NCBI GenBank assembly: GCA_964016885.1
Contig: OZ024741.1
Span: 326,306,001-326,370,000, forward strand
DNA from: Eledone cirrhosa
Taxonomy: Eukaryota
Direction: 5' to 3'
DNA length: 64,000 nt
In this document: positions 2,918 to 54,384 of the stretch, in pieces
How positions within the stretch are numbered: the first letter of the stretch is position 1
Layout: each line of letters opens with the position of its first letter
Position numbers and translations under genes: made by a program
Notes under the pieces: model-generated
What the model was told of the DNA's origin: nothing
The model's database searches: none
Seen by the model: only the letters and a program-made list of their open reading frames with translations

Positions 2918-3074
2918 TCAGGTTATCAATAATGTAGTGATAATATATCGTTACGTTAGAGATGAACAGCGTACGTGCAGGTTTGTTCAACGAGTATAAA
3001 TTATATTCCGGAGAAAATGTAGAAAGGATGAATATAAAATGAAAGTGCTTTTTTTTAAAAAGGAATTTATTAGG

Positions 3075-3192
3075 TATTGACATATGTTTCTGTAACAGAC
3101 TGAATACCTATGTATCGCTGCTTGCGTAATCATATAATGTTAGCAAGTATTCGATAGCAAATGTATAATCAGTTGTCACTTCTTCAGAGATT
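3075..3192 (-). ncRNA. Hammerhead-like motif, ~90-nt stem II, weak stem I
   Basis: CTGAAGA-aGTGACAACTGA...TCAGTcTGTTACa-GAAA-CATATG-TC. Stem I is poorly paired. Confidence 0.55.
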
Positions 3193-4263: not shown

Positions 4264-4381
4264 AATCTCTGAAGAAGTGACAACTGATTATACATTTGCT
4301 ATCGAATACTTGCTAACATTATATGATTACGCCAGCAGCGATACATAGGTATTCAGTCTGTTACAGAAACATATGTCAATA
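4264..4381 (+). ncRNA. Hammerhead-like motif (inverted copy of 3075-3192)
   Basis: CTGAAGA 4269-4275, GAAA 4366-4369, palindrome CATATG, GTC triplet. Confidence 0.55.
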
Positions 4382-4459
4382 CCTAATAAATTCCTTTTTT
4401 AAAAAAAGCACTTTCATTTTATATTCATCCTTTCTATATATATATATATATATATATAC

Positions 4460-4634: not shown

Positions 4635-4664
4635 CTATATATATATATATATATATATATACTG

Positions 4665-6126
4665 TATAATATGGGGGCTTATTTTACAGGTTATACATTT
4701 CTTATCTATACATGAGGGTCTTTGAAAAGGGTATGTCTTGTTAATAAGTGTTTTTACGGAGGTACCTGGTCTTTCTACTATCTTAATATTGAGTTTATGT
4801 TTATCTAGGGGACTTCTAAATTTGTAAGCTAATTCACCTCTAGGGGTTGTATCGATGAACATTACACTCTGGTATTTATTGCTATCATACCATGAGTTTA
4901 TTCTATTAGCCTTGTTCCTAGTTCTTTCTATTCTATTCCAAAATTTGCTCCTATAGAAGGGGCAGGTCCCATTTATGTCATTATTTACCATTTTTTCCCA
5001 TTTGGTTCTGGCTCCTCTATACACTCTGATTTTATCTCTCTGATTGTAGCCAGAGAACTGCATACGGTGGATGAAGTGTTGTATGTGTCTCTCTAGTTCT
5101 TCGGGGTTGCACATGCGGGACACGTTTCTCATCACCCGTACCAAATCCGCAATCAGTATGTTGATTTTGATATGGTCGGACACGGCGCAGTTTCGGTGGA
5201 TCAGATGTTTGGAAGTCATGGGTTTGGCATAATGGGAATGGAGGATTTGTTTTTTGTTATTACTGGTATCTTTTGAAAGACCCTCATGTATAGATAAGAA
5301 ATGTATAACCTGTAAAATAAGCCCCCATATTAACTGTAAAACTAGAAATGTAGTGTATAGCATAAGATGTACTGAATGACAATGTAGAGACACAAATATA
5401 GTGTACATAGGTGAGACAGCTCGTAGTGTAGGGGAACGGATAAATGAACACTGGCGAGATTTTCAAGATAGTAAAGAATCATCTGTACTCTACCAACATG
5501 CTAAAATAGAACACAAGGGTAAATTAGAGAACATAGAAATAAAAATAGAATCTGCGCACAGAAAAGACGCAATGTGTAGACAAATCACAGAGGCAATAAA
5601 CATAAAAGAATTACAACCAAAATTAAATAGAAAATATGAGTGGAACAGCAACATGACAACTTACAATTAAGGACAAAATGAAAACACACACACACACAGA
5701 ACAAACAACCAAGCAGTAACATGTAAATAAACAAATAAATAAATGAACATAAACACACACAGACACCCGGATGTGGCGCATGCGCAGACTGAGCACACAA
5801 CACACACACAGAAACAAAATGGCGTAGGACAGAACAAAGGAGAGGCACAGAAACAAAGAAAGGTATCCCCAGTCACTGAAGAGGTCACAGAGTGTGTGAC
5901 GAAAGAACTATGACAATATATAAACAACTATCTGGTTGTGGAACCAACCAACCAACCAGAAATTTATAAATTTATATTTATTATAACTTTATTATAATAA
6001 ATTGAAGTGAAAGCAACGGGTGCGTGTGTTTCTTATTGGCAACATGACCCTCCCAAAGTATAACAATATTGGTTTCAACACACGATTTCAGATAAAGAAT
6101 CTTGCTAAACAAATTCAGAAACGAAA

Positions 6127-6130: not shown

Positions 6131-7581
<1,451 letters not shown>

Positions 7582-7851: not shown

Positions 7852-8220
7852 CATATATGTATATGTATATATACACGTATATATACATACATATATATAC
7901 ATGTATATATATATATATGTATGTATATATATGTATACATGTATATATATAAGTATATATATATATATATAAATACCGTCCCCCCCATATATATATATAT
8001 ATATATTATACAGATATACTCACAGACATATGTGTATATATATACATACATATATATACATGTATATATATATATGTATGTATATATGTGTATACATGTA
8101 TATATATGTATATATATATATATCCCCCGCCCACATATGTGTATATATATATATATATATAAAATATTAAAAAATAATGAATAAAACAATGAAACAGTTC
8201 CTTATATTAAACAAAAAAAG

Positions 8221-8375
8221 TTCATTATTTAACGATCGTTTCTAGGATATAGATTTGTTAGAATTGGCATGCATATTCAACAGATCTATGTACAAAATTA
8301 TACAAAATTATACAAACTATCAAAATTAAATATACATACCAAACACATATATATGCCGTCTTCAGAAATAATGAA
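8221..8375 (-). ncRNA. Hammerhead ribozyme with 116-nt stem-II insert
   Basis: TTCATTATTT-[CTGAAGA]-cGGcATATA...TATATCCta-[GAAA]-CGATCG-TT|AAATAATGAA. Perfect 10-bp stem I and palindromic stem III. Confidence 0.75.
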
Positions 8376-8971
8376 ATATATTTATTGATAATAACAACAA
8401 TTCAAAATTTCAGGTCTGTTTGGGAACAGAATTCAAATTGACCAATCAAAATACAAAAAGTTTATGCAGTTAGGTGTGTGTATATACATGTAATTAACTT
8501 CGTTCACAGATATGCATAAAGATATGTGTTCACATGCACACGCATGCCAAAAAGATGTATGTAAATACAAAAATTCAAGGCTAATGTCTCTGTAAGTTTA
8601 TAATCTACAGATAAAATGCGTATAGATACATAATTATAAAATAAATATATACACACATTCATATACTCACACATATTCGTACACTCACACACACACGCGC
8701 GTATACGCATAAACATACACATAACTACGAACATACATACACACATAACCCCCACACACATATATATGTGTATATACTATTATCATAAGCATATGGACAT
8801 TAATGCACGCACATAAACACTGCCACACATATTTAGATCCAGATACAGAAATTAGGTGGGGGGGGGGGGGAGAGGTCAGTATTCAACGGTGTCAGCAGAC
8901 TGCCTATTTATAAATGTATCTATAAACTTAGAAATAAAAAGAAAAGAAAAAGAAAAAAGAAATATATTAAG

Positions 8972-9028
<57 letters not shown>

Positions 9029-9191
9029 ACATACACACACACACATATACATATACATATATATATATATATACACATATATACACACATATATACATAT
9101 ATATATACACACATATATATACATATACATACACATACATATATATATATACAAACAAGTAAAATATAAAATATACATCGATATACATACA

Positions 9192-9522
9192 CATGGTGGC
9201 TGCCAACTCGTTTTCGAGTACGGCCACTACTTTATATCCATGTAGGAGAACCCCTACCGATGCGCTGAACGAGTGTGACTTTTTAGTCTAGCCAGCGACT
9301 TGAACACTCTGGTACAAACACTACACTTGTGACAATTATTGACACATAGTGCTGGGCCCATGGTACCATGTGACGACAAGTGCAGAGAGATCTCCAGATA
9401 TAAAGTAATGCCTGTGCCGTGAAGCTTTTATAGTGAGCAAAGGCACTGCACAAAGCCAGTCCCACTCTCTTAACCAAGATGATATTTACCAAAAAGAAGA
9501 ACAAGTCAACATCATTGGATAC
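9192..9522 (+). repeat. ~330-bp interspersed repeat (second copy 58008-58337 on -)
   Basis: Near-identical reverse-complement copy. Both give the same antisense ORF (SNDVDLFFFLVNIILVKRVGLALCSA...). Confidence 0.85.
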
Positions 9523-9799
9523 CAACAGCGTTGCAGGTGTTATATCAGAGTTTTCCTTCTCCTAGAATTCTGCCTTGACAAAGGCTAAGGGGTCATCTCT
9601 CCCGGTGATTGTGGATGGCCATTGACTCTTAAGAGCTCCTTTGCCCTTTGACAGGTTTTGTTTTTACTCCTGCAGGATGTCCAAAGTCACCCTCCTCACT
9701 AAGAAACCTTGGTGGGGTTGCCAGTTTAGTCGCCAACGACCCGACCATGAGACAGGTTGTACTGGGATACATGTTACCAGTAGCACCAACTGGTGACCT

Positions 9800-10061
9800 G
9801 ACACAATACATACACATACACATATATATATATACACACACATACACACACATACATATACATACATATACATACACATATATACAAACACATACATACA
9901 CATACATATACATACACATACCATATAAATACACATACACATACACACACGCATACATATAGAGACACATATATATACACATATAAATACATAGACATAT
10001 ACACACATACACACACATATATATATATATATATATTTTTACACATATATACACATACACG

Positions 10062-10093
<32 letters not shown>

Positions 10094-10128
10094 CATTCAC
10101 AACACACGTATATATATACACACACACA

Positions 10129-10160
<32 letters not shown>

Positions 10161-10163
10161 CAC

Positions 10164-10210
<47 letters not shown>

Positions 10211-10281
10211 CACATCTACACACATATATATATAAACACACTCATATATATACACACAAACACATACATACCCACATATAA

Positions 10282-10315
<34 letters not shown>

Positions 10316-10325
10316 GCATACACAT

Positions 10326-10408
<83 letters not shown>

Positions 10409-10513
10409 CATATACACACACATACACATATACACACACACACATACACACACATACATACACATACACATATATAAAGATATATATACACACACACACA
10501 CATATAATAAATA

Positions 10514-10551
<38 letters not shown>

Positions 10552-10937
10552 CATATATATACATATATATATATACATATACATATACACATACACATAT
10601 ACACACATATATACATACACACACACATACATACACACACATACATACTCATACATAGACATAGATATATACTCACACACACATACACACTTACATATAC
10701 GCATATATACAAATACATACACATCCATATATGCGTATATACATACAAACACCACTACACGCTCACACAACTCAGACATACAAAGAAAAAGGTATATACA
10801 TACATATATATACATATATAAATAGAGATACATATACATATATAAATATATACACACGTACACACATAAACACACATACATACACATACATACACACATA
10901 CATATATATATACACACACACAAACACACACATATAC

Positions 10938-10990
<53 letters not shown>

Positions 10991-11246
10991 CACATATATA
11001 TACATACATACACACACACATACATACATACATACATACACATACATATATATAAAAAAATAAAGAAATAAGATAAATAAAAAAATAAATAAATTAATAC
11101 ACACAGTCAGACAAAAATGCACGCACATACATATACATATATATATATATACACACACACATATATACACACATACATACATACATATACACATATATAC
11201 ACATACACATACATATAAATACATATACACACATCAACTACAAATA

Positions 11247-11293
<47 letters not shown>

Positions 11294-11680
11294 TTATATA
11301 TATATATATTATAATAATAAATAATATATATATACACATATATATATATATATATATACACACACTCACATATATATGCGCACATACGTAAACATATACA
11401 CATACGTACACATATACACATAGACATATACATGTGCATACATGTACATACACACATATACCCACATAGATACATAGATACACATATATATAGAGACATA
11501 CATATACACACACATATATACACACACATATACACATATATATATATACATAAATATATATATATATATACACACAATCATACACCCTTATTTGCATGCG
11601 CATATATGTATTTTTATACTCACATATAAACACCCAAACATACATACCTACCTACATATACATACATACATCCACGCTTA
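9800..11680. repeat. Compound (TA)/(CA)/(CATA) microsatellite
   Basis: Directly visible in the sequence. Confidence 0.95.
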
Positions 11681-12752
11681 CAAATACAAATAATAATAGT
11701 AGGGGGGGAGGGGATTATAGTAAATATATGTTTCAAGAAACATAGAATATTAATCTGCATTTAGATCATAATATGTGTTTACATAGTTTCAGTATTAGGA
11801 AATGTAAGGAAGAAGGCAAAACTATGCATTTCAATATAAGTATACCATTAATTATAGGTTAACTAAACTAAAGATAGTTAATATATTGATTTCTAAGGTG
11901 TATACTACTTAGGTTTATAATATTTGAAGCAGAATTTTGAAGTTAAATAGTGGTAGAGTATTAATTATAGTATAACTAAATTAAAATTATTAACGTTATG
12001 GTATCAATATTAGGAAATGAATTTAGTAATAGGGAAAAAACAAATAAAGTATTACATCGGTAGTAGAATATAAATTATAGGTTAACTAAATTAAAAATTA
12101 TATATTAATTTCTATAGTATATGTTAATTAGGTATATAATAATTAAAACAGATATTGTATTTTATCTATAGTAGAATATAATTATAGGTAAACAGAAATT
12201 AAAATTAATACATACACATATACATATACATATATATATACATATGTATATATATATATACACATACATATATATACATACACATACATATTTTTTCAAA
12301 AATTGCAAAGAATATATTAACAAGGTATACATCCAAAACCTATCTCATTCTATGATTACATGACACTCTGCAATCCATCTGTATTAGGATACTAATTTTA
12401 AGCCAATTAAATTAAATTTTTAGGTTGACCAAATTTAAAACCAAATTATAAATATATTTCTAAAATGTACATTAATTAGGTCTATAATACTAAAAATTAT
12501 TTCTCTGTCATTGAATACACGATATTTTGTTATATTTTATCTGTAAAGGAATTTTAATAAAAGGTTAAATAAATTAAAATTAATCTATAAATTAAATTAT
12601 TAAGTATATATTAGTAATATTTAAAAGTTTTTCACAATTTATGATTACACAATATTTTATAATCTCATCTGTAGTAGAATTTTAATTAAATTAAATTTAT
12701 AGGTTAACTAACATTTAAATTAAATTATATATTAATTTCTAAAATAATGTTA

Positions 12753-14495
12753 TTAATTAGGTTTATAATATTTAAATGTTTTTCTTAGTTTATGATTAAA
12801 CGATATAATTAATTCCTGTCGTTTATTTAATAGGATATCCTTAGATTTCATTATTTCAAATAGTTCTTGGGAACATAATCTACATTCATTTCTATTATTT
12901 TGATAAGGGGTGGCTCTTTTGAGCACACTCCAGGTCAAATCATATTCTATATTCTTATTTTTATAACTAGTGATTTTTTCTGCTAGAGATGTTGTATTAG
13001 CCAGTGCGGCATTTTTAAAACTATGTTTGTGGGTATTAAACCTTGTCTTAAAATTGTTAGAAGTAGCTCCTATATATGAGCAAATAGAATCTTTAGTTTT
13101 AACATTACATTTATAAACTATGTTGTTAACAAGACAATTTCCTTTTAATGGGCAGTTTGCTTTGTTTCTACAGTTACAACCTTTCGTTAATTCTGTATTT
13201 GAGGAGATATTATGGTTAGTTTGATGTATTGGTGGTATACTTATGGTTTTCTTACATTTATATGCATTATAGGCACTTATATTTTGTTTTATGTTATTTG
13301 TTGTTGAGTATGAGAATTTAACTGTAGACCTATTTAAGATTTGATGGTATTTGTGGTTTGGCGGGAAGTTTTTCTCTAGGATATAAAAAAATGTTTTAGC
13401 AATATTATCCTTAATTTGTAAATTAAATGGAGCATTATACCAAGTAACCCGTCTATTACGGTTTCTATGTTGTTTATTATTTTTATAGGTTGTATCGTGA
13501 TGTTTACTAGGAGGATTAATGTTAATGATCTCACCACACACATTTTTAGTTATATTTGTAGATTTAGGTGTTTTATCTTGTTTATTAGGAGTTTTATTAT
13601 TAACATTTATTAGAGTTGTATGATGAGTAGTTTTTTGAGAGTTACTATACTTTATATTAGAAGATTTGGTATTTTGGGGTATAGTGTGGGTGGCATTTAG
13701 GTGTGTACTTTTCATTTGGTGTTTGTTGGTAATATTAGGTTGTATGTTTTTAGTTTTTTTAGTAGAAGGTATATATTCTAATCTATTTTTGTGGCCACTT
13801 CTATCTAGAGCTTCGTTATAGAAGGTCGCATTTTTATCAAATACATCTTGGTTAGAAGAAAGGTTAGAAATTCTAAGTGATATATTATATGCAAGGTTTT
13901 TAAGGATAGATTTAGGGTGATTAGATTGTGAGTGTATGTAATGTAAGTTTTGGTTGGGTTTATGGTAAGGTTGGTAGATACCCGTAGCTAAGTCTAAAGT
14001 TATATCTAGGAAATTTACTACTTTACTTGTTTTTTCAAAAGTAATATGAAGACTATAATAGTCTTTAAGGAAAGTTCTAATATGCTTTTTGTTTTTTTCT
14101 ATTTCTGAAAGGCTAAGGTTGTTGGAAAGAAGAAGACAGTCATCACGATATAAACCACCTTTAAGGTGGGGAAAGGAGGCATTTATGTTGAAAAGGAGAA
14201 AGAGGCCCACAAGATCAGTAATTTGGGCGGAATCGCTTGAACCCATAGTAATATCAAATAGATTACTATATGTGTTTCTGGTCCAGTATTCATTCTGAAA
14301 TTCAATAAGTGTTAGTCTAGCATGTGTAATAATATTAATGTCATCCAAAGTTAAGTTAGATCTATTTTTAGCAAATATCAATGCTTTGTTCAGGAGTATA
14401 GGTGATATAGAAGAATAGTAATTATCTATATCAAATTGTAGAAATGAAGCAGAAGATTTACATCTAATATTTTTAAACCAGTTAATTACCTGCAT
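12753..14495 (-). CDS. Naiad-type PLE RT + GIY-YIG endonuclease (5'-truncated, 580 aa open)
   Basis: [82 protein letters not shown]. Confidence 0.9.
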   Translation of the reverse strand: MQVINWFKNIRCKSSASFLQFDIDNYYSSISPILLNKALIFAKNRSNLTLDDINIITHARLTLIEFQNEYWTRNTYSNLFDITMGSSDSAQITDLVGLFLLFNINASFPHLKGGLYRDDCLLLSNNLSLSEIEKNKKHIRTFLKDYYSLHITFEKTSKVVNFLDITLDLATGIYQPYHKPNQNLHYIHSQSNHPKSILKNLAYNISLRISNLSSNQDVFDKNATFYNEALDRSGHKNRLEYIPSTKKTKNIQPNITNKHQMKSTHLNATHTIPQNTKSSNIKYSNSQKTTHHTTLINVNNKTPNKQDKTPKSTNITKNVCGEIININPPSKHHDTTYKNNKQHRNRNRRVTWYNAPFNLQIKDNIAKTFFYILEKNFPPNHKYHQILNRSTVKFSYSTTNNIKQNISAYNAYKCKKTISIPPIHQTNHNISSNTELTKGCNCRNKANCPLKGNCLVNNIVYKCNVKTKDSICSYIGATSNNFKTRFNTHKHSFKNAALANTTSLAEKITSYKNKNIEYDLTWSVLKRATPYQNNRNECRLCSQELFEIMKSKDILLNKRQELIISFNHKLRKTFKYYKPN

Positions 14496-14737
14496 GCCAA
14501 TTCTAACACATATATATCCTAGAAACGATCGTTAAATAATGAACTTTTTTTGTTTAATATAAGGAACTGTTTCATTGTTTTATTCATTATTTTTTTAATA
14601 TTTTATCTTGACTCTGTATTCCGTTTATCTTTCACCGAAAGTGATTTTTCATTGCATCTCTTCTTTCCATGATATCCGGATTACATTGAGTTCTTCATAC
14701 GGATTGGACACTACCGTAAACTCTTGGTAGATTTATC

Positions 14738-14846: not shown

Positions 14847-14897
14847 AGATTCCTGATGATTTCTTATGAATGAAACAGTTCTAGTCCTGTAGAATCT
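14847..14897 (+). ncRNA. Type-I hammerhead ribozyme in a 135-bp solo element (14847-14981)
   Basis: AGATTC-[CTGATGA]-tTTCttatGAAt-[GAAA]-CAGttctagtcCTG-TA|GAATCT. Confidence 0.85.
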
Positions 14898-15017: not shown

Positions 15018-15814
15018 TCCAGGGGTCCCTTTCCTTCATATGAATGAAATGTAATGAAATAAAACGTAATATGTTGTCTGTAAAGAGTAAAAGTATGTTT
15101 AGAAGTGAATTGTTTTCTTTCTAAATATTATGAAGGAATTAATAATACTGTGATAACAACAACAACACCAAAGGCACTTCCAGTGTTACGAACACAGACG
15201 ACATGTATGACGTAACAGATACCGTCATCACCAACAATAACAACAACAGGAACAACTACAGCACTATTATCATCGACAACAACAACAATATCAAACGTAA
15301 ACCCAACAACAACAACAACAATGTCAAGCTCAAACCTCAAAACAACAACAATACTAACGATATTTCCTCTAGTATTATCACCAACCACAACAATAAGAAC
15401 AACAACAGATATAATACTAAAATAAACTTCAACAAAAAACACCAACACTGCCAGCCCCACCACCTACAACGACATCTACACCACCAACAACAAAAACAAC
15501 GTCAATAATTGTTTCTACTTTTGGCACAAGGCCAGCAATTATCCCAGTGCATTACTGGTACTTTATTTTATCAACCCCGTAAGGATGAAAAACAACGTCA
15601 ATAATAAGATCAACATAAACATTACTAAGAATAATGTTATCAATCACCATCAACACCAACTACAACAATACCAACAACAACGACAAATACATTAAGAAAA
15701 CACCACCACCACTAATAACAACTCCACCACTACCACCACCACCACCACCAACAACAACAACTTCACAACTATCACCACCAACTACAACACAAATAACATC
15801 AACAAAAGACTACC

Positions 15815-16960
15815 ACCACATCACCATCACCACCACCATAACCATCTCCACAGCCACCACAACAAACCCCACCATCACCACCACCATAACCATCTCCACA
15901 GCCACCACAACAAACCCCACCATCACCACCACCATAACCATCTCCACAGCCACCACAACAAACCCCACCATCATCACCACCACAACCATCTCCACAGCCA
16001 CCACAACAAACCCCACCATCACCACCACCATAACGATCTCCACAGCCACCACAACAAACCCCACCATCACCACCACCACAACCATCTCCACAGCCACCAC
16101 ACGAACCCCACTACCACTACCACCACAACCATCTCCACAGCCACCACCACCAATAGCACCATCACCACCACCACAACCATCTCCACAGCCACCACAACAA
16201 ACCCCACCATCACCACCGCCACAACCATCACCACCACCACCACAACAAACCCCACCATCACCACCGCCACAACCATCTCCACAGCCATCACAACAAACCC
16301 CACCATCACCACCACCACAACCATCTCCACAGCCACCACAACAAACCCCACTATCACCACCACCACCACAACAAACCCCACCATCACCACCACCACAACC
16401 ATCTCCACAGCTACCACAACAAACCCCACCATCACCACCACCACAACCATCTCCACAGCCACCACAACAAACCCCACCATCACCACCACCACAACCATCT
16501 CCACAGCTACCTAAACAAACCCCACCATCACAACCACCACAACAATCTCCACAGCCACCACAACAAACCCCACCATCACCACCACCACAACCATCTCCAC
16601 AGCCACCACAACAAACCCCACCATCACCACCACCACAACCATCTCCATAGCCACCACAACAAACCCCACCATCACCACCGCCACAACCATCTCCACAGCC
16701 ACCACAACAAACCCCACCATCACCACCGCCACAACTATCACCACCACCACCACAACAAACCCCACCATCACCACCACCACAACCATCTCCACAGCTACCA
16801 CAACAAACCCCACCATCACCACCACCACAACCATCTCCACAGCTACCACAACAAACCCCACCATCACCACCACCACAACCATCTCCACAGCCACCACAAC
16901 AAACCCCACCATCACCATCGCCACAACCATCACCACCACCACCACAACAAACCCCATCAT
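15815..16960 (+). repeat. 48-bp C/A-rich minisatellite (~24 degenerate units)
   Basis: Unit CCCACCATCACCACCACCA(C/T)AACCATCTCCACAGCCACCACAACAAAC, translating as PTITTTITISTATTTN or PPSPPPQPSPQPPQQT. Confidence 0.9.
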
Positions 16961-17773
16961 CACCAGAGCCAATAACAACTCCACCACTACACCACCATCA
17001 CCACGACCAACAACAGCAAAAAACAACAAATCAACAACTCCACCACCAACGATAACATCAGTAACAACAACGATGACACCAGCTGAAACAACAACAACTA
17101 AGACAGAAACAATGCCAATTATTATTTCTAACGTTACAACAAGAATAATTTACAAGAAAAATAGGGAAACAGACATACTCACTAAAACTAAAAAGATACA
17201 GAGAAAATCTCCCCCAAAATTTAATAGTATACATCTTAACATAGTATTGAACGATTTAGAATGACAAAAATAAAATGAAATAACTAGTTAAATAAATAAA
17301 AACCTATAAAAAATAATATAAAATTCTGGAAACATTCCTCTCGCTAAAAATGTGTGTCATAGAATTGCGTGTAATGTAAATATTAAACTCCAATTTATTT
17401 CGTCAAGGAAATCAAGAATTGTATAGGCTTTATTTAAAATGTTAGGAGAGACTAAGTGGGAGATGGTGAAACTGATTGTGTCTCTGATTATATGTCGATG
17501 AAACGTGAATTCGAATTTCTTGCCGGATGCTACAGAAATTTATGTTGTATTTGTGACAAATAACGTTTAAATCCTCAAATAATTTAACATATTGTTTTAC
17601 TGCTTCATTAGAAGAGTTAATCAAGTGTGTGTGAATGATAACAATAATGATAACAATAATGATGATGATCATGATGATGACGTTGAAGTTGACTTTTGAA
17701 AAATGGCGACGTTAATAATCCTTATGTTATAAATATTCATAAATATTTATTTCTTGTCTGAATTGGTTGGGAA

Positions 17774-23254: not shown

Positions 23255-23448
23255 GATTCCTGAATTATGTCGGGTGGTAACCATAATTAAAAAAAGTACT
23301 CAATATTTTGGTTGAGTATAAGCATTTTTATTATATATATATAGGAACGACTTCTACAGGACGCGAGCTGTTTCATTCGTATGGAATCATCATGATTCCA
23401 TACGTATGCAACAATTCTAACCCTGTGTAAGTCATTTCTATATAATAA

Positions 23449-25303: not shown

Positions 25304-25491
25304 CGAATTATCAGCCACGAGAGCTCTGACACATACACTAGCATAAAGTACAAACAGATTGATCTCTTTGTTATATATATATATATATATATGTATGTTA
25401 TGTGTGTATATATATATATACATAACAAAGAGATCAATCTGTTTGTACGTTATGCTAATGTATGTGTCCGAGCTCTCGTGGCTGATAATTC
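25304..25491. repeat. 70-bp inverted repeat around a (TA)n/(TG)n spacer
   Basis: GAATTATCAGCCACGAGAGCTC...GATCTCTTTGTTAT / ATAACAAAGAGATC...GAGCTCTCGTGGCTGATAATTC. Confidence 0.85.
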
Positions 25492-25917: not shown

Positions 25918-28900
25918 TCAGAAGAAGTAGACCAGACTATGGCCAGAGAGGAAGTTGCCTGACCTCAGACCTTTCAATCGTGTCCACCAAACAACCTCTT
26001 TCAACATGGCTATTACGCACAGAAAAACCGCCCTTGCTTCCTTTGTGAAGAGGGGAGGCGGTTTGATTGTCATCACGGACTCGGCGGTCAATTGAATCGG
26101 CGCCACCCGCGACAGCAGTCGTTCGGCGTAGCCCCACAGATCAGCCACGCCCGGACATTGCACCAATGCGTGCGCAACGGTTTCTTCGTGACGCACGCAT
26201 CTAGGGCAAATCTTTTTCGAGGGTTCCCTGCCCGGGCGCCCGTGTCTGTAGAGCCTCTCTCGAACGGGTAGAGCCCCCCGGTAGCACTGCCAGGCTAGTG
26301 ACTTCTGGAAGTTGTCCATTGGTCCCGGGCCGAAAGTCCTACCGAACAGGCTGGCCAGTTCGTCCTCTTCCATGTCCAGCGACTCTCTAAGGGTGTCATC
26401 GCCCCTGCTAGCCACCAGCACTCTAAAGAATGATGAGGTGGATTCTCCGCCGATGGCCTGGCCCGCTTGCCAGAGAGCCCTGAGCGCCTGAGCACACTCA
26501 GTATGCCATTCTCCCAGTTTTCCGGATCTTTGCTTGACCCAGGACTGCAGCTCGGTGAGCGAGACGAGTCTCGGAAAGGCTCGTTTCACGAACGGAGCCC
26601 ACACCGGTTGACCAGTGAGGAATACCTGTAGGTGCCGTAGCCTTAATGCGTGCCTACGCATCATCAACCACGCCATCCCCAGCCCTCCTTTCGAAGGTTG
26701 TTGGCAGCAGATGGATCTTCTCACCATAGGAGGGCGCTTCTTCCAAAGAAATTGGAAGAGCATGCGTTCCATGGTGGTGAGTGTTTCCTTAGGGCAAGGC
26801 ACGACAGTCAGGCGGTAGTAAGTGACGGACGCTATGTAAATGTTCGCCACCTCCGCCCGGCCTTTTAGGGACAGCTTACACTTGGCCCATTTCTGGGTTA
26901 GTGCAAACACCTTGTTCGTAACCTCGTTCCAGTTCTTTTCCACCTGGAGGTCCGGTCCAAACCAGACCCCAAGCAACTTTACCGGACCCTCCGTCCAGTG
27001 TCCGACGACACCGTCGGGAGGCATCGGTCTGCCTCTCCACGTTCCGAGTTGCAGCCCGATGGATTTTTCCCGGTTCAGTTTCGCTCCTGACAACCTTTCG
27101 TAATCCTTCAGTAAGGTACCGATCGCCTCGATCTCCGAGTCGGTCGATACCATTACTGTTACGTCATCGGCGTAGGCCGACACCGCTTTGCTCAATCCTG
27201 GTTCCAGGGGGATACGCTGAAACAACTCTAACTTCCTCAGTAAAGGCTCGAGAGTCAATACGTACAGAAGGGAGGAGAGAGGGCACCCCTGTCGAATGGA
27301 TCGTGTGATTTCGAACGGCTTTGAAAGGTAGCCGTTCACCTTGATCCTAGAACAGATGTGGTTGCTATGTAAGGCAGTGATCCAGCCTCTGAAAACAGGA
27401 CCGAACCCAGCCGCCGCTAGCACCGCATCCAGGTAACCATGGTCGACCCTATCGAAGGCCTTAGACTGATCCAAGTTGATCAGGGCTCCACCGAAGCCGG
27501 GTTTGTTGCCAACCCTCTCTATGATTTATCGCATGAGGTGGAGGTTATCGTGAATGGACCTGGATGGGATAGCACATGTCTACGCATCTCCCACCAGGCT
27601 ACCCACGACAAGCGCCAACCTCTTTGCTAACACCTTGGCCAGAATCTTTAACTCTGTGTTTAGCAGGGTTATGGGCCGAAAATTATTTATACTATCCCCC
27701 TTGTTCTCGTATTTCCTCACCAGCGAGACTACGCCCTTGGCTACAGAACAAGGAATTCTCCCGTTCTGCTGCCAATTGCAGTAGACCGCTTCGAGGAGTT
27801 CGGAGAAGAAGACCGGCATTGCTAAATAAAGTTCGTAAGGTATACCATCGTGACCTGGAGATTTGCGTCTGCTGCATTGGCTCAGCGCATCTCCGATCTC
27901 ATCAGCCGAGATTGGTCCCTCGCAGGACTCTGCCTCTTCGCTCGAGAGACGCGGCAGGCCGTCGAGGTATGGACCGAAATCCACGTGCCCGCCCGGACCC
28001 TCGCCTCCCCCGAATAATCGGGCAAAGTGCCTTTGAAAGGCCTCGCACATCTGCTTAGGCTCCCGGATCACCCGTCCATCCTCGTCTGGCAACGACCGGA
28101 TGGTGGATCGATTTCCACCCTTAGCTTCTGTCACGCGGGCCCAGCCAACGGCTTTGGTCCCCTCATTACCTAGAGCACGTATTTTACTTCGAATGACGCA
28201 GCCTTCATGCTTTGCATCGAAAAACTGGTTCAAGGCCGTCCTCGATGCCAGCACTCTGGCCACATCTTCGCTCTTGATTGCCTCTTCTAATTTACCTGTT
28301 AATTCTTTCTCGTTTCTATTCCTATCGGCAGCTAACATCTTTCTATAACTTATTGATTCTGTTCTAATCTCTCTTTTGAGAGATGCCCACCATCGGTTGT
28401 TGACGATTGCACCCGTCAACCTCTCCTTAACTAATCTGATAATCCGGTTTCTGTAAGTCTCTTTTGCCGGTAAAGACAAATTAAGTTTCCAGTAACCGGG
28501 ACCCTGTTTATGTGTTTTCTCTAGATTGACTACGCAGATCACTAATTTGTGATCCGTATAGCCAACCGTGCGCATTTCTGGACAGCTTAATATGTCCCTA
28601 TCCTTACTTCTAACTAATAATCTATCTAAGTACGATCTAGATTGAACACTGTGGTTTCTCCAAGTCCAGGTAGGCACAGTTGGAAAATCTAGTCGATATC
28701 TATCGACCAAGTTAAAACGGTCGAGTAACCCCTTGAGGCTGTTACACCCCCTCTATTAGGACATGCTCCTGCATAGTCCCAACGTGCATCTAGGATGTCA
28801 TTCCAATCCCCCGCTAGAAGTAGGGAAGGCGACGTTCCCAGAAAAGTCTCCAACACGCTGGAAGAAGTCGGGCCGTTCAGCTCCGAAAGGGGAGTAGACG

Positions 28901-29229
28901 GCGACCAGTTTCAAGGCCGCACCTTCACTACTGCCAACGTCTAGCACCAACAAACGACCCTCCGGGTCCGAGTGAACAACCTGTACGGCAAGACCCAGGT
29001 GTTTTTGCAGCAGTACGACAACCCCACCCCCACCTCCAGGTTGACAGAGAGATGCATGCACCTCAAAGTCATCGAAAGTAGGGGCCAGCTGTCGCACGAC
29101 GCTGATCCGAGTCTCACAGATAACCATTACATTTATACCACATGACCTAAGGTCATTTAGAAGCTTTGCTTGCTTCCAAGTTGAGCCCAGGCCACGTGCA
29201 TTCAAACATCCTACTCTTAACACATCCAT
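25918..29229 (-). pseudogene. LINE ORF2: APE endonuclease - RT - C-terminal CCHC (split into 28798-29229, 27580-28710, 25918-27474)
   Basis: CLNARGL, ICETR, TWTW, SYLDR, TDHK, YWKLN, SPGHDGIP, FRPITLLN, DQSKAFDRVDH, IRQGCPLS, YADD, GGLG, CPRC..ETVAHALVQC. Confidence 0.92.
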
Positions 29230-32161: not shown

Positions 32162-32650
<489 letters not shown>

Positions 32651-32679: not shown

Positions 32680-34435
32680 TAGAACACTTGTGGGTCATAT
32701 CCGTAGTTGTAGAGCACTCAGTCTATGGGACGGGTTTGGTAGAAGATCATTGCACATTGCCGGAAAACCCTCCCCTTCAACAATGGCGTTACCTGGACAA
32801 AGAAGTCAACTACTTCAGAACTATTCGACATATCAATGGGATCATTCGATAGTACTGATGTATGTGACTTAGTTAGCTTATTCATTTTAAATACGTCACG
32901 TAATAGATTCCTGGACTTCCACACGGACTTATACCGTGACGATGGTCTGACCCTATCGAGCCACCAAACTGGTCATGACCTGGACCGTTTTAAAAAAGAT
33001 TTAATTACTAGTTTCAATGAGTTAGGACTTAGGATAACAGTAGATACTAACCTTACTGGCGTAGATTACTTAGACATAAATTTAGATCTTCACACACACA
33101 CCTTTAGAACTTTCCATAAACTAAATGAAAAAACAAATTTCCTACACTCTTGCCACCCACCTACAGTTTTTAGAAACTTCGTGAAAAATATCGACACTAG
33201 AATCTGTAACCTCTCCTCTAATGAAGCAATCTTTGACCGAGCGGCACCCTACGATAACGTGGCGTCAGCTAACAGCGGCTTCTCGCAACCAATTGCTTAC
33301 TCCCTTACTGAAACGCTAACAAAAATAGAAAAAGAAATCGTGCTATAGAAGACTAGTTTGGTTCTCCCCACCCACCCCCTTCTCATTCAACGTTAAAACT
33401 AATGTAGGTAAAATATGTTTAGCACTCTTAGATAGACGCTTCCCCATAGGTCAGAAATACCGATCCATCTTTAACAGACACAGGTGAAACGCGGATACTT
33501 CTGTGCTAAAGATATGAAGGCCCACATCACCAAAAGCCATTAGAGCAGCACTCCCACTAAGACCCTCTTGCCGAAGGCTTGAAACTTGTCTCCTTCAACA
33601 ACAATGTAATACACACGCTGTAAATCACGAAGATGTGGTCACTTCTGACCGACCAAATCAACAACAAGAGGTTAAATCATATGGAGGAATGGCGGAAGGC
33701 CGAATTAATGAACACTTCCTGAATCATCTGTCGACCTTCAGATACCCGGACAAACGATCGACCACGAAGCTCGCGAGCCACATATGGTCCCTCAAGGACA
33801 CAGGCGTGGATTACTCCATCCAATGGAAAGTTATTACTAAGTCTAAGCCATACGGAAATGGGAATCCCGCTTGCGGGGTGGTGCATTGAAGAAAACATCA
33901 ATATCCCGAGGAGTTGGCGTAATAGCGCTTTCTAAATTCAAGGAAGGAGCTTCTTTCACGTTGTTCACACGTCTGTAAATACCTATTACGTAATTACAAA
34001 TCTCCAGATTAACGAACATGAACAATCTATAATATTCTGGACTGAATAAAATGAATAATTTATAATTATTCTGGACATCCACAGTTGCCTCCCCCACATC
34101 GATCTATCGTGCATTTACTTCCCCTTAGATAGTGACTGTTTCTGCACATGCGTATTCGTACAGTTGTTTTTCCTTTTCTGTACAAACTCATTTAAACAGA
34201 TCTGATGATCCAAATAAGGTGAAACAATTGTTTTTGGTAATAGTGAACTAACTGTTGTAGAACTACTTCTATATATATATTATTTGTTAACCTGTTTAGG
34301 TTGCTCGTTTTTTTCGGATACGGTTGTTGCTCTGGTTTCTTCTTAGTTCATTGAGCGCTTGTAGGCATATCTCGAAGATTGCGTTTCGTTTTGTTTTGAA
34401 CACCGTCGAAATACGATCTCGCTGAAATTATATTT
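32680..34435 (+). pseudogene. Degraded Naiad-type PLE (RT core, thumb, GIY-YIG remnant)
   Basis: FDISMGSFDSTDVCDLV, LYRDDGL, VDYLDINLDL, HPP, YGGMAEG..HLSTFR..TKLASHIWSLK..IQWKVI. Multiple frameshifts. Confidence 0.85.
34196..34236 (+). ncRNA. Degenerate minimal hammerhead at the PLE 3' end
   Basis: CTGATGA-tCCaaataaGGt-GAAA-CAATTG-TT, with an imperfect stem I. Confidence 0.55.
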
Positions 34436-35658: not shown

Positions 35659-35740
35659 GTTATTCCGGGTTGAATCGGAGGTAACCACAGTAAGTAAGGT
35701 ACTCAATACATAGCAGAGTATAACAGTTTTAATATAGATG

Positions 35741-39359: not shown

Positions 39360-40611
<1,252 letters not shown>

Positions 40612-44147: not shown

Positions 44148-44213
44148 TATTTTGTCTGATGAAGGCATAGCATATTGTTAATATGATATCCCCGAAATAT
44201 ATATAATGAAATA
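44148..44213 (+). ncRNA. Hammerhead ribozyme at the 3' end of the nested Naiad
   Basis: TATTTTGT-CTGATGA-...-GAAA-TATATA-TA|ATGAAATA. Confidence 0.7.
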
Positions 44214-44341: not shown

Positions 44342-44380
<39 letters not shown>

Positions 44381-44471: not shown

Positions 44472-44557
<86 letters not shown>

Positions 44558-47637: not shown

Positions 47638-47759
47638 TTATTGACACGTGTTTCTGTAACAGTTACATAACCTGAAAACAGCTGCTATCTACAAAAGTTT
47701 TAGTTATGCAGACATTCAATATTTCAATGTTATTATTTACTGTCATTTCATCAGAATAA
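47638..47759 (-). ncRNA. Hammerhead ribozyme with 93-nt stem II (3' pLTR)
   Basis: TTATT-[CTGATGA]-aaTGACAGT...ACTGTTAca-[GAAA]-CACGTG-TC|AATAA. Confidence 0.78.
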
Positions 47760-48629: not shown

Positions 48630-50951
48630 TTATGTAATATTCGGCTTGTAGTGGGAAAAAAGGGTTTTAGTTCTGTGACGGCAGAATAATGTTCGTTTAA
48701 TTCTGTTATTCAGCAATTTCTTCTTGTGTGTGATTATGTAATAAATCTCAAGATTACATAATTTGCAGAAATTTTGGCTCCTGGAAAAGCTTTGGGTTTT
48801 AGCTAATTTCTCCCATTTTAGAGTAAACTTTTGATCACTATCCCTGAGCGTCCAAGCTTTTTCTGCTAAAGTTGTTACATTTCTTTGGCTCTGGTGTTTT
48901 ATTGAGTAAGAATGCCTATATAATCGAGATTTGAACGATGTTGCCGTTGATCCCACGTAATACCACTCGTTGCCTCCGGATTTAATGGTACACTTATAAA
49001 TAATATTTTTTTCCAGGCAGTTATTGCCGAGGGGGCAGTTGTCAGGATAGGTGCAGTTACAGTTGTGTACGTTGGGTTTTCTCTGGAGTAGTATTGCGGA
49101 CGAACTTAGGTGTGGTTTATTTATGTTCTGTAGTGTATTGTCTACTGTTTTTTTTGTGTTTTTTGTACTTAAGTTCTTAGTGTTTTCGTTTAACCTTCTA
49201 GTATTGATCTTTTTTATGTGTTGTTCAAGGTTTAACGCTGTAGAGTATAACAGTCTTATAGTGGTTGGGTTTAGGATTTTGTGGTATTTGTGTGATGTAG
49301 GAAAATGTCTCTTAATTATTTTAAAGAAGAGTACTGGTAAATTTGTACTAATGGAACTATTGTATTCGGGGTTATACCATAAGTACTCTTTGCATCGCAT
49401 TCTATTAGTTTTGTTTGTTGGTTTACTGGTGTGCATACTACGGTAGTAAGTGTGGTTTGGTCTTGTGTTATTATATCTACCTATGTGGGATTTATTTTGG
49501 GTGTTTTGATTGTTCCCATCTATATACTCTATTTTGTTGAGGTAGCCTGCTTTACTAAGGGCGTTATCGTAGTACTCGGCGTGTTCCTTAAATACTTGTA
49601 TGTTAGAAGATAGACCCGAGATTCTAAGGGAAATATTTTTAGGGATAGATTTAATTATAGAGATGGGGTGGTTAGATCCAACATTTACATATTTGAGATT
49701 TTCATTCAATTTATGAAACGGTTTAATCAATCCAGAGTTTAAATTGAGTGTGACATCCAGGAAGTTAACTACTTTAAGGTTGTATTCATATGTTATAGTT
49801 AGTCCTATTTCGAGTAGTAGTTTTCTTATATCTTTGCGTAGTTTTTCTAGTTTTTGGTTACTTAGGTTTTTAACTAGGAGGAGAACATCGTCGCGGTATA
49901 TTCCGCCGTGGAGATTGCTGAATTTTTCCTGGAGTCTAAAGGCGATAAATAACCCCACAATATCAGTTATTTCCGCGGAATCGTTAGAGCACATTGTTAT
50001 GTCAAAGTTAGAGGGTCTATCTTTACGTACCCAATAACTGTTCTCGAATTTGACTATAGTTTTCCTAGCTTCTAGTATAATCTTAATTTCATCGTTTGTA
50101 AGGTCAGAGTTATCCTTAGCAAACTTAATGGCTCTATTCAAAGTTTCAGGTGATATCGATGAGTAATATTCATCGATATCAAACTGGATAAACTTAGATT
50201 TATTCTTATTGCTAATTCTATTAAACCATCTTATTGCTTCTTGGGTCTTCCCCCAGAGTTTAATGTTAACCTTAGCCCTAATTTGGGGGATGATTCTATC
50301 TAAGATATATTTGCTTATTTTACCTATATCTGATTTGGAGGGGCAGATTAATCTAATTTTAGGGTCATTATCAAAGTTTACCTTATGGTCCTTAAGATTG
50401 AAGATGGGTACCGCCGGTAAGAGTGGTCCTGTCCTATCTTCGATTCCGAGATTTTTCACTATTTCGTATGCCTCATCATTGATGTGCTTAAGAGCTACTT
50501 CATTCGTTTTTCTATATTTTTTATGTAATTCTTTTCGAATGAAGTTGTTGTATGTAGTGCAATCCATAGTATACAGGTTTGATGTTTTGTCCGCTTTTAC
50601 TACAATTCCTTTGGTGTTTTTAAGGTCGTCCAGTAGTTTTTTTATATCTTTCTGTAATTTGCTGTTGGTGCTGCGTCCTTTGAATTTAATTTTAAGGATT
50701 AAGTTCATAAGGTCCTGCTCAAATGCATCTAATAGTGGGTTGGTGGGTGGATTTTTACAAGTCCTAAAACCGAATTTGTTGTTTACACCACTTTCTAATG
50801 TTGAGTTCATACGGCTTCTATCATAGTGGAGCGTTTTCCACCTGACACGTCGAATGAATTCATTAGTTTTTCGAATCATACTCAATAAATATTCCTTTCT
50901 ACCTTGGGTTGGTATGTTTTTGAGTGACATATCCAGGTAGTGTTTTTCCAT
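48630..50951 (-). CDS. Naiad-type PLE polyprotein (RT + CxCx5C linker + GIY-YIG), 773 aa
   Basis: SLKNIP, RRVRWK, KADKT, KDHK, FIQFDIDEYYSSI, MCSNDS (MGS in the sister copies), GIYRDD, CNCTYPDNCPLGNNC, NIIYKC..YVGST..FKSRLYRH, CKLC..E, CRH. Confidence 0.95.
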   Translation of the reverse strand: MEKHYLDMSLKNIPTQGRKEYLLSMIRKTNEFIRRVRWKTLHYDRSRMNSTLESGVNNKFGFRTCKNPPTNPLLDAFEQDLMNLILKIKFKGRSTNSKLQKDIKKLLDDLKNTKGIVVKADKTSNLYTMDCTTYNNFIRKELHKKYRKTNEVALKHINDEAYEIVKNLGIEDRTGPLLPAVPIFNLKDHKVNFDNDPKIRLICPSKSDIGKISKYILDRIIPQIRAKVNIKLWGKTQEAIRWFNRISNKNKSKFIQFDIDEYYSSISPETLNRAIKFAKDNSDLTNDEIKIILEARKTIVKFENSYWVRKDRPSNFDITMCSNDSAEITDIVGLFIAFRLQEKFSNLHGGIYRDDVLLLVKNLSNQKLEKLRKDIRKLLLEIGLTITYEYNLKVVNFLDVTLNLNSGLIKPFHKLNENLKYVNVGSNHPISIIKSIPKNISLRISGLSSNIQVFKEHAEYYDNALSKAGYLNKIEYIDGNNQNTQNKSHIGRYNNTRPNHTYYRSMHTSKPTNKTNRMRCKEYLWYNPEYNSSISTNLPVLFFKIIKRHFPTSHKYHKILNPTTIRLLYSTALNLEQHIKKINTRRLNENTKNLSTKNTKKTVDNTLQNINKPHLSSSAILLQRKPNVHNCNCTYPDNCPLGNNCLEKNIIYKCTIKSGGNEWYYVGSTATSFKSRLYRHSYSIKHQSQRNVTTLAEKAWTLRDSDQKFTLKWEKLAKTQSFSRSQNFCKLCNLEIYYIITHKKKLLNNRIKRTLFCRHRTKTLFSHYKPNIT

Positions 50952-51155
50952 TGTTGTGGTTGCGTTTGCTGTGTGGGTTGCTCGACTTTACAGGAGGTAA
51001 ATATACAGTATTTTCCGTTGTATTGAAATATAAATATTACACACAGTAGATTGACAGCTCACGTAGAGTTTGCTCGACGGTTCCAGTTGTAGTTCCAAAA
51101 GTAATCCGGAGAAAAATAGAAAGATTTGAATGGATACAGTTTAGTTGAAAGGAAC

Positions 51156-51277
51156 TTATTGACACGTGTTTCTGTAACAGTTACATAACCTGAAAACAGC
51201 TGCTATCTACAAAAGTTTTAGTTATGCAGACATTCAATATTTCAATGTTATTATTTACTGTCATTTCATCAGAATAA
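51156..51277 (-). ncRNA. Hammerhead ribozyme (5' pLTR copy)
   Basis: Same motif as 47638-47759. Confidence 0.78.
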
Positions 51278-53486: not shown

Positions 53487-54044
53487 AGTAGCGAAGCAAG
53501 CAGTTATTAAACAATTCTCTAAATAAATTAAAAAATGATTAAATAATCACCTGTTCAAACGCTGTTACCGACGGTTTCATCATTCCGAAAGATTGGAAAT
53601 TCAGAGAATTTCCAATGGAAAGAAGTGAATCTTCAGACAGCTCTATTTCCACGATAATATTCAGCTATTATCAGCGACCTGATTTTGCGTGTGTGTCATT
53701 TTAACGGCTTGACCGCATGCGTTAGGCAGGAAGCATAATATTTACTTGCTATAAGGCTTGCTACCTTATGGCGTGGAAATAGAGCTGTATGAAGATTCAT
53801 TTCTTTCCATTGGAAATTCTCTGAATTTCCAATCTTTCGGAATGATGAAACCGTCGGTAACAGCATTTGAACAGGTGATTATTTAATCATTTTTTAATTT
53901 ATTTAGAGAATTGTTTAATAACTGCTTGCTTCGCTACTCTTTATATTGTTCTGGTATCTCGAATTAGTGCCATCGAACCACATGTATTATAAACAACTTG
54001 AATATTTCTACAAGTACATTGTACCTGTTGAGGTATTCATCCAC

Positions 54045-54259: not shown

Positions 54260-54384
54260 TCCTGAACGGTGGTTTCTGTGTAATATTTGCTTGCAAATAT
54301 AGATTTTACCACTGCAATGTTCAGAAAATCACGTAAAATCAGCAGATAATTACGCAATCGGGCTATTACACGTCATCAGCAGGA
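54260..54384 (-). ncRNA. Type-I hammerhead ribozyme, 96-nt stem II, in a (TA)n-bounded island 54120-54800
   Basis: TCCTG-[CTGATGA]-cGTGTAATA...TATTACACa-[GAAA]-CCACCG-TT|CAGGA. Confidence 0.75.

What the first reader, a model, noticed from the sequence alone, without database searches (positions are those of the whole stretch)
8221..8375. Atypical hammerhead class: giant stem-II insert and a non-Watson-Crick 10.1-11.1 pair
Seen: the segment between CTGANGA and GAAA is 116 nt here, 96 nt at 54260, 93 nt at 47638/51156, 90 nt at 4264, 63 nt at 32433 and 51 nt at 53561 and 63861. In most cases a clear basal helix forms (e.g. GTGTAATA/TATTACAC). The closing positions are C/A (8221, 54260, 63861, 32433), A/A (47638, 4264), U/U (14847, 53561, 34196) or A/C (44148). 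Known: canonical hammerheads have a short stem II closed by a G10.1-C11.1-type pair. Inference: recurrence across unrelated sequences, including the intact element, points to a conserved variant fold rather than decay. Standard covariance models would probably miss it, and the insert could be an RT-binding or regulatory domain.
Basis: partly seen in the sequence, partly recalled or inferred. Interest (0 to 1): 0.82.

Follow-up and report, generated by a model that had tools for sequence, protein, structure and literature searches.

The report
Long-armed hammerheads of Penelope-like jumping genes
The site is a hammerhead RNA motif, predicted to cut itself, at the tail of a Penelope-like jumping gene; its second arm is a 116-base hairpin, about twice the longest I found tabulated for such elements, while its unpaired arm base is a loosely held position already reported elsewhere.

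Summary
Real, but only partly new. 8221-8375 (minus strand) is a complete type I hammerhead motif at the 3' end of a young Hydra-type Penelope-like retroelement. All quoted spacer lengths and closing letters check out. A relaxed descriptor found 154 motifs at 1000 core sites in 1.46 Mb, against 5 at 4333 decoy sites. Stem II runs continuously from 12 to 116 nt. The first stem II opposition is mismatched in 25 of 40 families but Watson-Crick in 14, so it is a relaxed position, not a defining pair; U-U and C/A are already in print. The long arm is a selected hairpin: it folds strongly and carries compensatory changes. In one old family, shared variants hit N7 and N17 but none of 11 core positions. 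New here: 90-116 nt arms, and a predicted pseudoknot between the arm's internal loop and the 5' flank of stem I in several 40-100 nt families (post hoc p about 2e-5), absent at 8221. The scan earlier noted ordinary short PLE hammerheads in other genomes, not this variant.

The parts
8221..8375 (-). Complete type I hammerhead motif with 116-nt stem II
8366..8375 (-). Stem I 5' strand (10 bp with 8221-8230)
   Evidence: 98% of cells paired in 11 lineage copies
8359..8365 (-). Core CUGAAGA (C3-A9)
8243..8358 (-). Stem II arm, 116 nt: C/A opposition, 2 bp, C/C mismatch, 12-bp basal helix, 12-bp middle helix, apical internal loop and hairpin with a 10-nt tandem repeat
8239..8242 (-). Core GAAA (G12-A15.1)
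8232..8239 (-). Palindromic stem III (8 nt; self-duplex -10.0 kcal/mol), predicted dimer helix
8231..8231 (-). N17 (U); predicted cleavage just 3' of it; U or A among relatives
8159..14492 (-). 5'-truncated Hydra-type Penelope-like element carrying the motif near its 3' end; about 96% identical to full-length copy in L034; nested insertion near 9195-9805; ends in (TA)n about 72 nt past the cut site
12753..14531 (-). Truncated RT + GIY-YIG reading frame (592 aa) of the parent element
14491..14698 (+). Inverted 5'-truncated copy of the same element end (3' half of the hammerhead and tail)
47638..47759 (-). Hammerhead, 93-nt arm, A/A closing, downstream pseudo-LTR (47601-47949) of the element with an unbroken ORF
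51156..51277 (-). Hammerhead, 93-nt arm, upstream pseudo-LTR (51119-51467)
48630..50987 (-). Unbroken 785-aa Hydra-type ORF (RWK, DKT, CxCx5C, C-terminal GIY-YIG) between the two pseudo-LTRs
54260..54384 (-). Hammerhead, 96-nt branched arm, C/A closing; old family; predicted GGGC/GCCC pseudoknot in relatives, damaged in this copy
53561..53641 (-). Hammerhead, 51-nt arm, U/U closing, predicted GGAAA/UUUCC pseudoknot; family forms 457-nt non-coding tandem repeats (retrozyme-like)
63861..63942 (+). Hammerhead, 51-nt arm, C/A closing; this copy truncated at stem I; family intact, about 550-nt non-coding tandem repeats, predicted GAGAAU/AUUCUC pseudoknot
32433..32528 (+). Hammerhead, 63-nt arm, C/A closing, weaker predicted pseudoknot in relatives
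4264..4382 (+). Core plus 90-nt arm, A/A closing, but no stem I in the family; inverted twin at 3074-3192 (minus)
44148..44213 (+). Hammerhead, 31-nt arm, A/C closing (A/U in other copies of the cluster); 3' end of Hydra ORF 40382-42682; twin at 6253-6318 (minus)
14847..14897 (+). Hammerhead, 12-nt arm, U/U closing, the published Hydra type; further copies at 46595 (+) and 35785 (-)
34196..34238 (+). Core with 12-nt arm, U/U closing; stem I does not form in this copy

Best explanation
The site is a type I hammerhead motif in the terminal repeat of a Hydra-type Penelope-like retroelement, predicted to cleave slowly as a dimer, and its long stem II is a hairpin kept paired by selection that likely serves as a structural arm, not a separate binding domain. 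Shown: intact core, stem I, palindromic stem III, sense position at the 3' end of the element, a long arm with compensatory changes, and a first stem II opposition that is free to be paired or mismatched. Inferred: two copies in a tandem transcript pair their stem III palindromes and cut after N17; a mismatch next to the A9-G12 pair is tolerated because a stable helix follows; in several 40-100 nt families the arm's internal loop docks on the 5' flank of stem I by a pseudoknot, standing in for the usual loop I-loop II contact; the tip of the arm grows by slippage and short duplications. Reverse transcription starts 43-72 nt past the cut site, so the copied template is uncut or re-ligated RNA.
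For: 154/1000 real versus 5/4333 decoy sites. Stem III is a perfect palindrome in 91 of 154; self-duplex -10.0 kcal/mol, and the hammerhead fold costs only 1.2 kcal/mol over the best fold in copy L002. In 27 copies of the 54260 family, shared variants occur at N7 and N17 but at 0 of 11 core and 0 of 10 stem I columns, versus 12 of 60 downstream columns (p 0.013 and 0.02). 8221 lineage, 11 copies: 96.8% of cells paired, 5 of 44 pairs with changes on both sides. Arms fold at median z -3.7 versus -1.0 for flanks (39 arms). Oppositions 1, 2 and 3 are paired in 15, 35 and 40 of 40 families. Own-flank pseudoknot score beats swapped flanks, p 5e-5 and 2e-5. A U-U-closed axolotl hammerhead and a dimer-dependent PLE hammerhead cleave in vitro (PMC7229834; PMC4209133).
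Against: No cleavage or expression data for these RNAs. The young, abundant 4264 family has core and arm but no stem I, so amplification does not always need the fold. All six families with arms of 90 nt or more are C/A or A/A, which could mean the mismatch matters there. An apical internal-loop motif is sequence-conserved in 10 of 11 copies of the 8221 lineage, even where the basal helix was replaced, which hints at a ligand. The pseudoknot register was chosen after seeing the data, some families in the test are related, and 8221, 47638 and 4264 show none. Covariation in the 8221 lineage rests mostly on one divergent copy, L252.
Confidence: 0.6

Rival explanations
1. The long arm is a binding or regulatory module: the element's RT/endonuclease or a host protein binds it and gates cleavage.
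For: The arm is under structural selection. The apical loop motif is conserved in the 8221 lineage. All six families of 90 nt or more have A at 11.1 and a mismatch. The one PLE hammerhead tested with its protein cleaved only when protein was present (PMC11167929).
Against: Arms share no sequence or shape between families (unbranched at 8221, branched at 54260). Close Hydra relatives manage with 12-36 nt arms. The arm tip is deleted or duplicated among subfamilies (96-116 nt). Element ends map downstream of stem I, and the RNA needed by the anole PLE protein lies in the first 172 nt of its ORF.
Confidence: 0.2
2. The motif no longer cleaves. It persists as a structural landmark in the terminal repeat or by recent inheritance, and the long arm is a by-product of fold-back copying.
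For: The 4264 family amplified without stem I (720 candidates, best 40 at 99%). Inserted copies read through the cut site. Hammerhead mutants did not impair insertion in vitro. A fold-back duplication lengthening a 12-nt arm is seen in L300.
Against: Shared variation falls on N7 and N17, the positions catalysis leaves free, and not on the core. N17 is never G by construction, but decoy cores give almost no hits. Stem I and the stem III palindrome are kept across about 40 sequence-distinct families.
Confidence: 0.15
3. The motifs are chance matches or decayed canonical hammerheads, and the mismatch is damage acquired after insertion.
For: Individual window copies are damaged (8221, 54260, 63861). 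The genome is AT-rich and repetitive.
Against: Decoy control; C/A in 97 of 97 copies of the 8221 cluster and A/A in 32 of 32 of the 47638 cluster, including both repeats of an element with an unbroken ORF.
Confidence: 0.03

Closest known systems
Hammerheads of Hydra-clade Penelope-like elements (Craig et al. 2021, PMC8557442, File S2)
   Same: Sense type I motif near the 3' end of a (TA)n-targeting element with C-terminal GIY-YIG; short, near-palindromic stem III; U/U at the base of stem II is the commonest form in that table, and C/A is listed for PLE-X1_cBra.
   Different: Hydra stems II there span about 12-26 nt; the longest entry of any kind is about 54 nt (PLE-X1_sMoe, marked as deviating). 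Here arms reach 90-116 nt. No pseudoknot is noted in that table.
Minimal hammerheads of metazoan PLEs (Cervera and de la Pena 2014, PMC4209133)
   Same: In the terminal repeats; palindromic stem III; dimer-dependent, low activity; larger than usual helix II; thousands of variable copies per genome.
   Different: They describe a 6-8 bp helix II, one extra nucleotide after A9 and a conserved G10.1-C11.1 pair. That register fits the Neptune-associated 18-nt family here, but the long families have a symmetric mismatch.
Non-LTR retrozymes, including axolotl HHR_Amex2 (Cervera and de la Pena 2020, PMC7229834)
   Same: Non-coding tandem repeats with one type I hammerhead per unit; Amex2 has a U-U mismatch at the base of helix II and cleaves 22% in an hour. 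The 53561 and 63861 families are such repeats.
   Different: Units here are 457 and about 550 nt, above the 150-450 bp range quoted, with 47-55 nt two-helix arms and a predicted pseudoknot in place of the loop-loop contact.
Pseudoknotted hammerheads (Perreault et al. 2011, PMC3088659; HDV-like type III motifs, PMC7936874)
   Same: Watson-Crick pairing joins stems I and II; natural U10.1-U11.1 is reported. In toad and termite motifs an internal loop of a long helix I pairs with loop II.
   Different: Here the geometry is mirrored: an internal loop in a long stem II pairs with the single-stranded 5' flank of stem I, in dimer-type PLE motifs. Perreault notes stem II is commonly very short.

Membership tests
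Type I hammerhead ribozyme | Core CUGANGA, GAAA and NUH | tested here: met
   8221: CUGAAGA, GAAA, GUU
Type I hammerhead ribozyme | Three helices, with the ends in stem I | tested here: met
   8221: stem I 10 bp, stem III 2 bp as monomer, long stem II. Not met for 4264 (family-wide), nor for the window copies at 63861 and 34196
Type I hammerhead ribozyme | Usual G10.1-C11.1 pair (common, with published exceptions) | tested here: not met
   C/A in 97 of 97 copies of the 8221 cluster; U-U exceptions published
Type I hammerhead ribozyme | Core more constrained than flanks in replicating lineages | tested here: met
   54260 family: 0 of 11 core columns with shared variants, N7 and N17 both vary; only one family, with about two subfamilies, was old enough to test
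Type I hammerhead ribozyme | Tertiary contact between stems I and II | tested here: inconclusive
   Pseudoknot predicted in 63861, 53561, 54260 and three other families, weaker in 32433; none at 8221 or 47638
Type I hammerhead ribozyme | Self-cleavage 3' of N17 | not testable with these tools
   needs an in vitro assay
Rfam hammerhead families | Covariance-model hit | tested here: not met
   0 hits of any family at gathering score in the window; no hammerhead at E up to 10 at 8190-8420, in six small loci, or at the short 5876 motif
PLE minimal, dimer-type hammerhead | Short palindromic stem III and tandem arrangement | tested here: met
   8-nt palindrome; 17 of 40 occurrences of the 8221 family run on into a next unit (some loci overlap)
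PLE minimal, dimer-type hammerhead | Extra nucleotide after A9 followed by G10.1-C11.1 | tested here: not met
   symmetric register favoured: pair 2 varies A-U, G-U, G-C; only 4 of 40 families fit the bulge register
Hydra-clade Penelope-like element | Single ORF, RT then C-terminal GIY-YIG, DKT motif, CxCx5C linker | tested here: met
   827-aa ORF in L033/L034 and 785-aa window ORF; Pfam gave no hit for these two domains in the parent, weak GIY-YIG in a relative
Hydra-clade Penelope-like element | RWK motif | tested here: inconclusive
   RWK in the 785-aa ORF, RWR in the 8221 parent
Hydra-clade Penelope-like element | Insertion into (TA)n | tested here: met
   22 of 40 occurrences end in (TA)n
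Hydra-clade Penelope-like element | Generally under 3 kb | tested here: not met
   8221 family has a 3' UTR of about 3.6-3.7 kb; the 47638 element is about 3.5 kb
Hydra-clade Penelope-like element | Grouping with published Hydra proteins in a tree | not tested
   reference proteins were only read by eye in the paper's supplement
Non-LTR retrozyme (53561 and 63861 families) | Non-coding tandem repeats, one type I hammerhead per unit | tested here: met
   periods 457 and about 542-554 nt; longest ATG ORF 33-60 aa
Non-LTR retrozyme (53561 and 63861 families) | Expression as circular RNA | not testable with these tools
   no RNA run listed for the stretch searched

The most novel reading that the evidence does not exclude
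Hydra-type elements and their retrozymes in this genome use an undescribed long-armed hammerhead architecture: a mismatched arm base, a two- or three-helix stem II of 40-116 nt, a docking pseudoknot from the arm's internal loop to the 5' flank, and in the longest arms a protein-binding tip that lets the element's own RT switch cleavage on. Tens of thousands of such motifs per genome would be invisible to current descriptors and covariance models.
Probability: 0.25. Interest if true: 0.72.

Novelty: new variant of a known kind. Interest (0 to 1): 0.45.

Why it matters
What PLE hammerheads do is an open question (PMC8557442, PMC11167929). This genome offers a natural series of about 40 families with arms from 12 to 116 nt, several closing oppositions, with and without a pseudoknot, and one family that lost stem I, which makes the role of cleavage directly testable. 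It also shows that length-capped searches undercount hammerheads: roughly 2.8e5 motifs per genome, about 1.8e4 with arms of 90 nt or more, by extrapolation from 1.0 Mb. The mismatch itself is not news.

Tried and rejected
Rfam scans: no hammerhead among the 150 of 233 rows shown at E up to 1 (83 rows unseen) and none. Expression: no RNA holder listed; the two contig runs laid only confirmed sequence variants. One origin for all arms of 90 nt or more: neither shown nor rejected (p-AU 0.45, 10 protein fragments; tree likewise open at depth). Pseudoknot at 8221, 47638 and 4264: not found; no signal in families under 40 nt (p 0.21 and 0.33). Arm as an intron: some arms begin with GT and end in CAG, but the 8221 and 47638 arms and several 63861 variants lack GT, and removal would destroy the GAAA core (sequence inspection). 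Naiad identity of the parents: rejected, the endonuclease is C-terminal. Whether published Naiad 'half-cores' are long-armed hammerheads: two of eight read by eye in the supplement showed no clear stem I, so no support. The repeat finder was swamped by microsatellites. Literature search returned nothing relevant. Lunse et al. 2017 on PLE hammerhead dimers was not held and Arkhipova et al. 2017 was not read; either could hold long-stem examples. Parent ORFs were not found for the 54260, 32433, 53561 and 63861 families within the flanks held.

Full report
Observation. The window has 36 CTGANGA sites. At 8365 on the minus strand the core is followed by 116 nt, GAAA, a palindromic stem III, a UU site and a strand that closes a 10-bp stem I, spanning exactly 8221-8375. 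Three of the eleven listed copies do not form stem I: 4264, 63861 and 34196.

Chance. I scanned 1.464 Mb of the own genome (the window, 400 kb beside it, and 100 scattered 10-kb stretches) with a descriptor that allows 8-200 nt between the core halves and leaves the closing opposition free. It passed 154 of 1000 core sites; ten permuted decoy cores passed 5 of 4333. The scattered 1.0 Mb alone gave 95 motifs, 6 with arms of 90 nt or more, all six of the 8221 lineage. That extrapolates to about 2.8e5 and 1.8e4 per genome. The figure is rough: stretches came mostly from large contigs, and the descriptor misses the 4264 and 32433 types.

What carries the motif. The 8221 motif is the 3' end of a retroelement at 8159-14492 (minus), about 96% identical to a full-length copy in L034, with an inverted truncated end at 14491-14698. 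Its family is young: the best 40 genomic matches are 99% or more identical. Full copies encode an 827-aa RT plus C-terminal GIY-YIG protein with DKT and CxCx5C motifs, matching the Hydra clade as defined in PMC8557442 (section read). The 47638/51156 pair are the pseudo-LTRs of an element with an unbroken 785-aa ORF, in sense orientation. The 53561 and 63861 families are non-coding tandem repeats of 457 and about 550 nt, like non-LTR retrozymes. The host was not identified.

The closing opposition. Among the 154 copies it is mismatched in 88, Watson-Crick in 57 and G-U in 9. By family (41 clusters, three artefact clusters dropped, 4264 and 34196 added) it is mismatched in 25 of 40 and Watson-Crick in 14, while the second and third oppositions are paired in 35 and 40 of 40. 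It switches within clusters, for example A/U 14 versus A/C 12, and G/U 5 versus G/C 7. It is fixed in the long families: C/A in 97 of 97 copies at 8221 and A/A in 32 of 32 at 47638, and all six families of 90 nt or more are C/A or A/A. So it is not decay, but it is a relaxed position rather than a class-defining pair. It is also known. File S2 of PMC8557442 lists U/U as the usual Hydra form and C/A once (table read). PMC3088659 reports natural U10.1-U11.1 (passages). PMC7229834 reports cleavage by a U-U-closed axolotl motif (passages).

The arm. Lengths run from 12 to 116 nt without a clear gap below about 75. Arms of 45 nt or more fold at median z -3.7 against shuffles, versus -1.0 for the adjacent flanks (39 arms, many related). 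Across 11 copies of the 8221 lineage, 96.8% of cells pair and 5 of 44 pairs change on both sides; most of these come from one divergent copy whose A-U basal helix is replaced by G-C pairs. Length within the lineage varies from 96 to 116 nt through (AT) slippage, a 10-nt duplication and a deletion near the tip. The window's copy has two private substitutions in the basal helix; the hammerhead fold costs 3.0 kcal/mol over the best fold there and 1.2 in an undamaged copy. The longest stem II in the published PLE table is about 54 nt. Nine literature searches turned up no PLE hammerhead with a 90-116 nt arm, but Lunse et al. 2017 was not held and figures were not visible.

Selection on the core. 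In the old 54260 family (27 of 30 loci; three truncated ones dropped) rare substitutions fall evenly on core (0.040 per cell) and arm (0.042), as expected for decay after insertion. Variants shared by four or more copies occur at N7 and N17 but at none of 11 core or 10 stem I columns, versus 12 of 60 downstream columns and 9 of 78 arm columns (p 0.013, 0.02 and 0.11). That is the pattern catalysis would leave, from one family with about two subfamilies.

A predicted pseudoknot. In several families the 5' strand of the arm's internal loop (positions about 7-15) is complementary to the flank just upstream of stem I, with different sequences in each: GAGAAU/AUUCUC (63861), GGAAA/UUUCC (53561), GGGC/GCCC (54260), and three families outside the window. 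Own flanks beat swapped flanks (p 5e-5, 16 families; p 2e-5, 17 families). The register was chosen after inspection and some families are related, so this is a strong lead, not proof. It is absent at 8221, 47638 and 4264 and in short-armed families. Stem I-stem II pseudoknots are known in other hammerheads (passages); this mirrored form in PLE motifs I did not find described.

Mechanism. Stem III is a perfect palindrome in 91 of 154 motifs, as in dimer-dependent PLE hammerheads (PMC4209133, parts 1-2 of 4 read). I infer that tandem copies pair their palindromes and cut after N17. Inserted copies end about 72 nt (8221 family) or 43-45 nt (47638 family) past that site, in (TA)n or running on into the next unit, so the copied RNA is uncut or re-ligated. 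This fits PMC11167929 (parts 1-2 of 4 read), where reverse transcription starts internally, downstream of the hammerhead, cleavage needs protein, and cleavage is dispensable for insertion in vitro. Nothing places RT on the arm. The 4264 family, young and abundant yet without stem I, counts against cleavage being essential.

One class or several. The 47638, 4264 and a third 90-nt family form a clade; the 8221 lineage is separate, and a common origin is neither shown nor rejected. Rfam misses long and short motifs alike.

Verdict. A real new variant of a known kind: long-armed PLE hammerheads, some with a predicted docking pseudoknot. The mismatch is known, the RT-binding reading is unsupported, and cleavage is untested. 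Interest 0.45.

Noticed in passing
window 4264-4382 (+) and 3074-3192 (-); L191-L220: Young, high-copy family with intact core and 90-nt arm but no stem I; the 8 nt after the cut site are instead complementary to the 3' strand of the arm, which could be an inhibitory fold.
   Followed up: partly
window 47630-47642 (-), 4385-4397 (+), 32530-32542 (+); L147: Motif AATAAATTCCTTT lies just downstream of the cut site in four long-armed families with otherwise unlike sequence; may be a polyadenylation or RT-start signal.
   Followed up: no
8221, 44148, 31683 families and others: A pyrimidine mismatch, mostly C/C, at the fourth opposition of stem II recurs in about eight families, many with a long A-U stem I; a possible tertiary contact site.
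   Followed up: partly
window 37900-46655: Nested Hydra-type elements: the element with ORF 40382-42682 and its 31-nt hammerhead appears inserted in the microsatellite-rich 3' UTR of the element with ORF 38314-39189, whose inverted end lies at 35725-36401.
   Followed up: partly
window 60755-63286 (-) and 4635-5462 (-); motif at 5871-5915 (+): Broken Neptune-type Penelope-like ORFs; their 18-nt hammerhead has the published extra-nucleotide plus G-C form.
   Followed up: partly
window 25918-30876 (-): Broken non-LTR (L1/Tx1-like by appearance) retrotransposon with endonuclease and RT frames.
   Followed up: no
window 15812-16965: 48-bp tandem array, about 24 copies, open in several frames.
   Followed up: no
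window 25305-25491, 59531-59865, 23346-23436: Long near-perfect inverted repeats around (TA)n, probably fold-back element ends; weak miRNA-model matches are microsatellite artefacts.
   Followed up: no
L069 region (G000:C2 about 326187700-326189700, minus): 466-nt tandem array with a 14-nt U/U-closed hammerhead per unit; a very common retrozyme-like family (27 of 154 motifs).
   Followed up: no
L300:8436-8560: Fold-back duplication of a 12-nt-arm hammerhead creates apparent 44- and 76-nt arms; a possible route of arm growth.
   Followed up: partly
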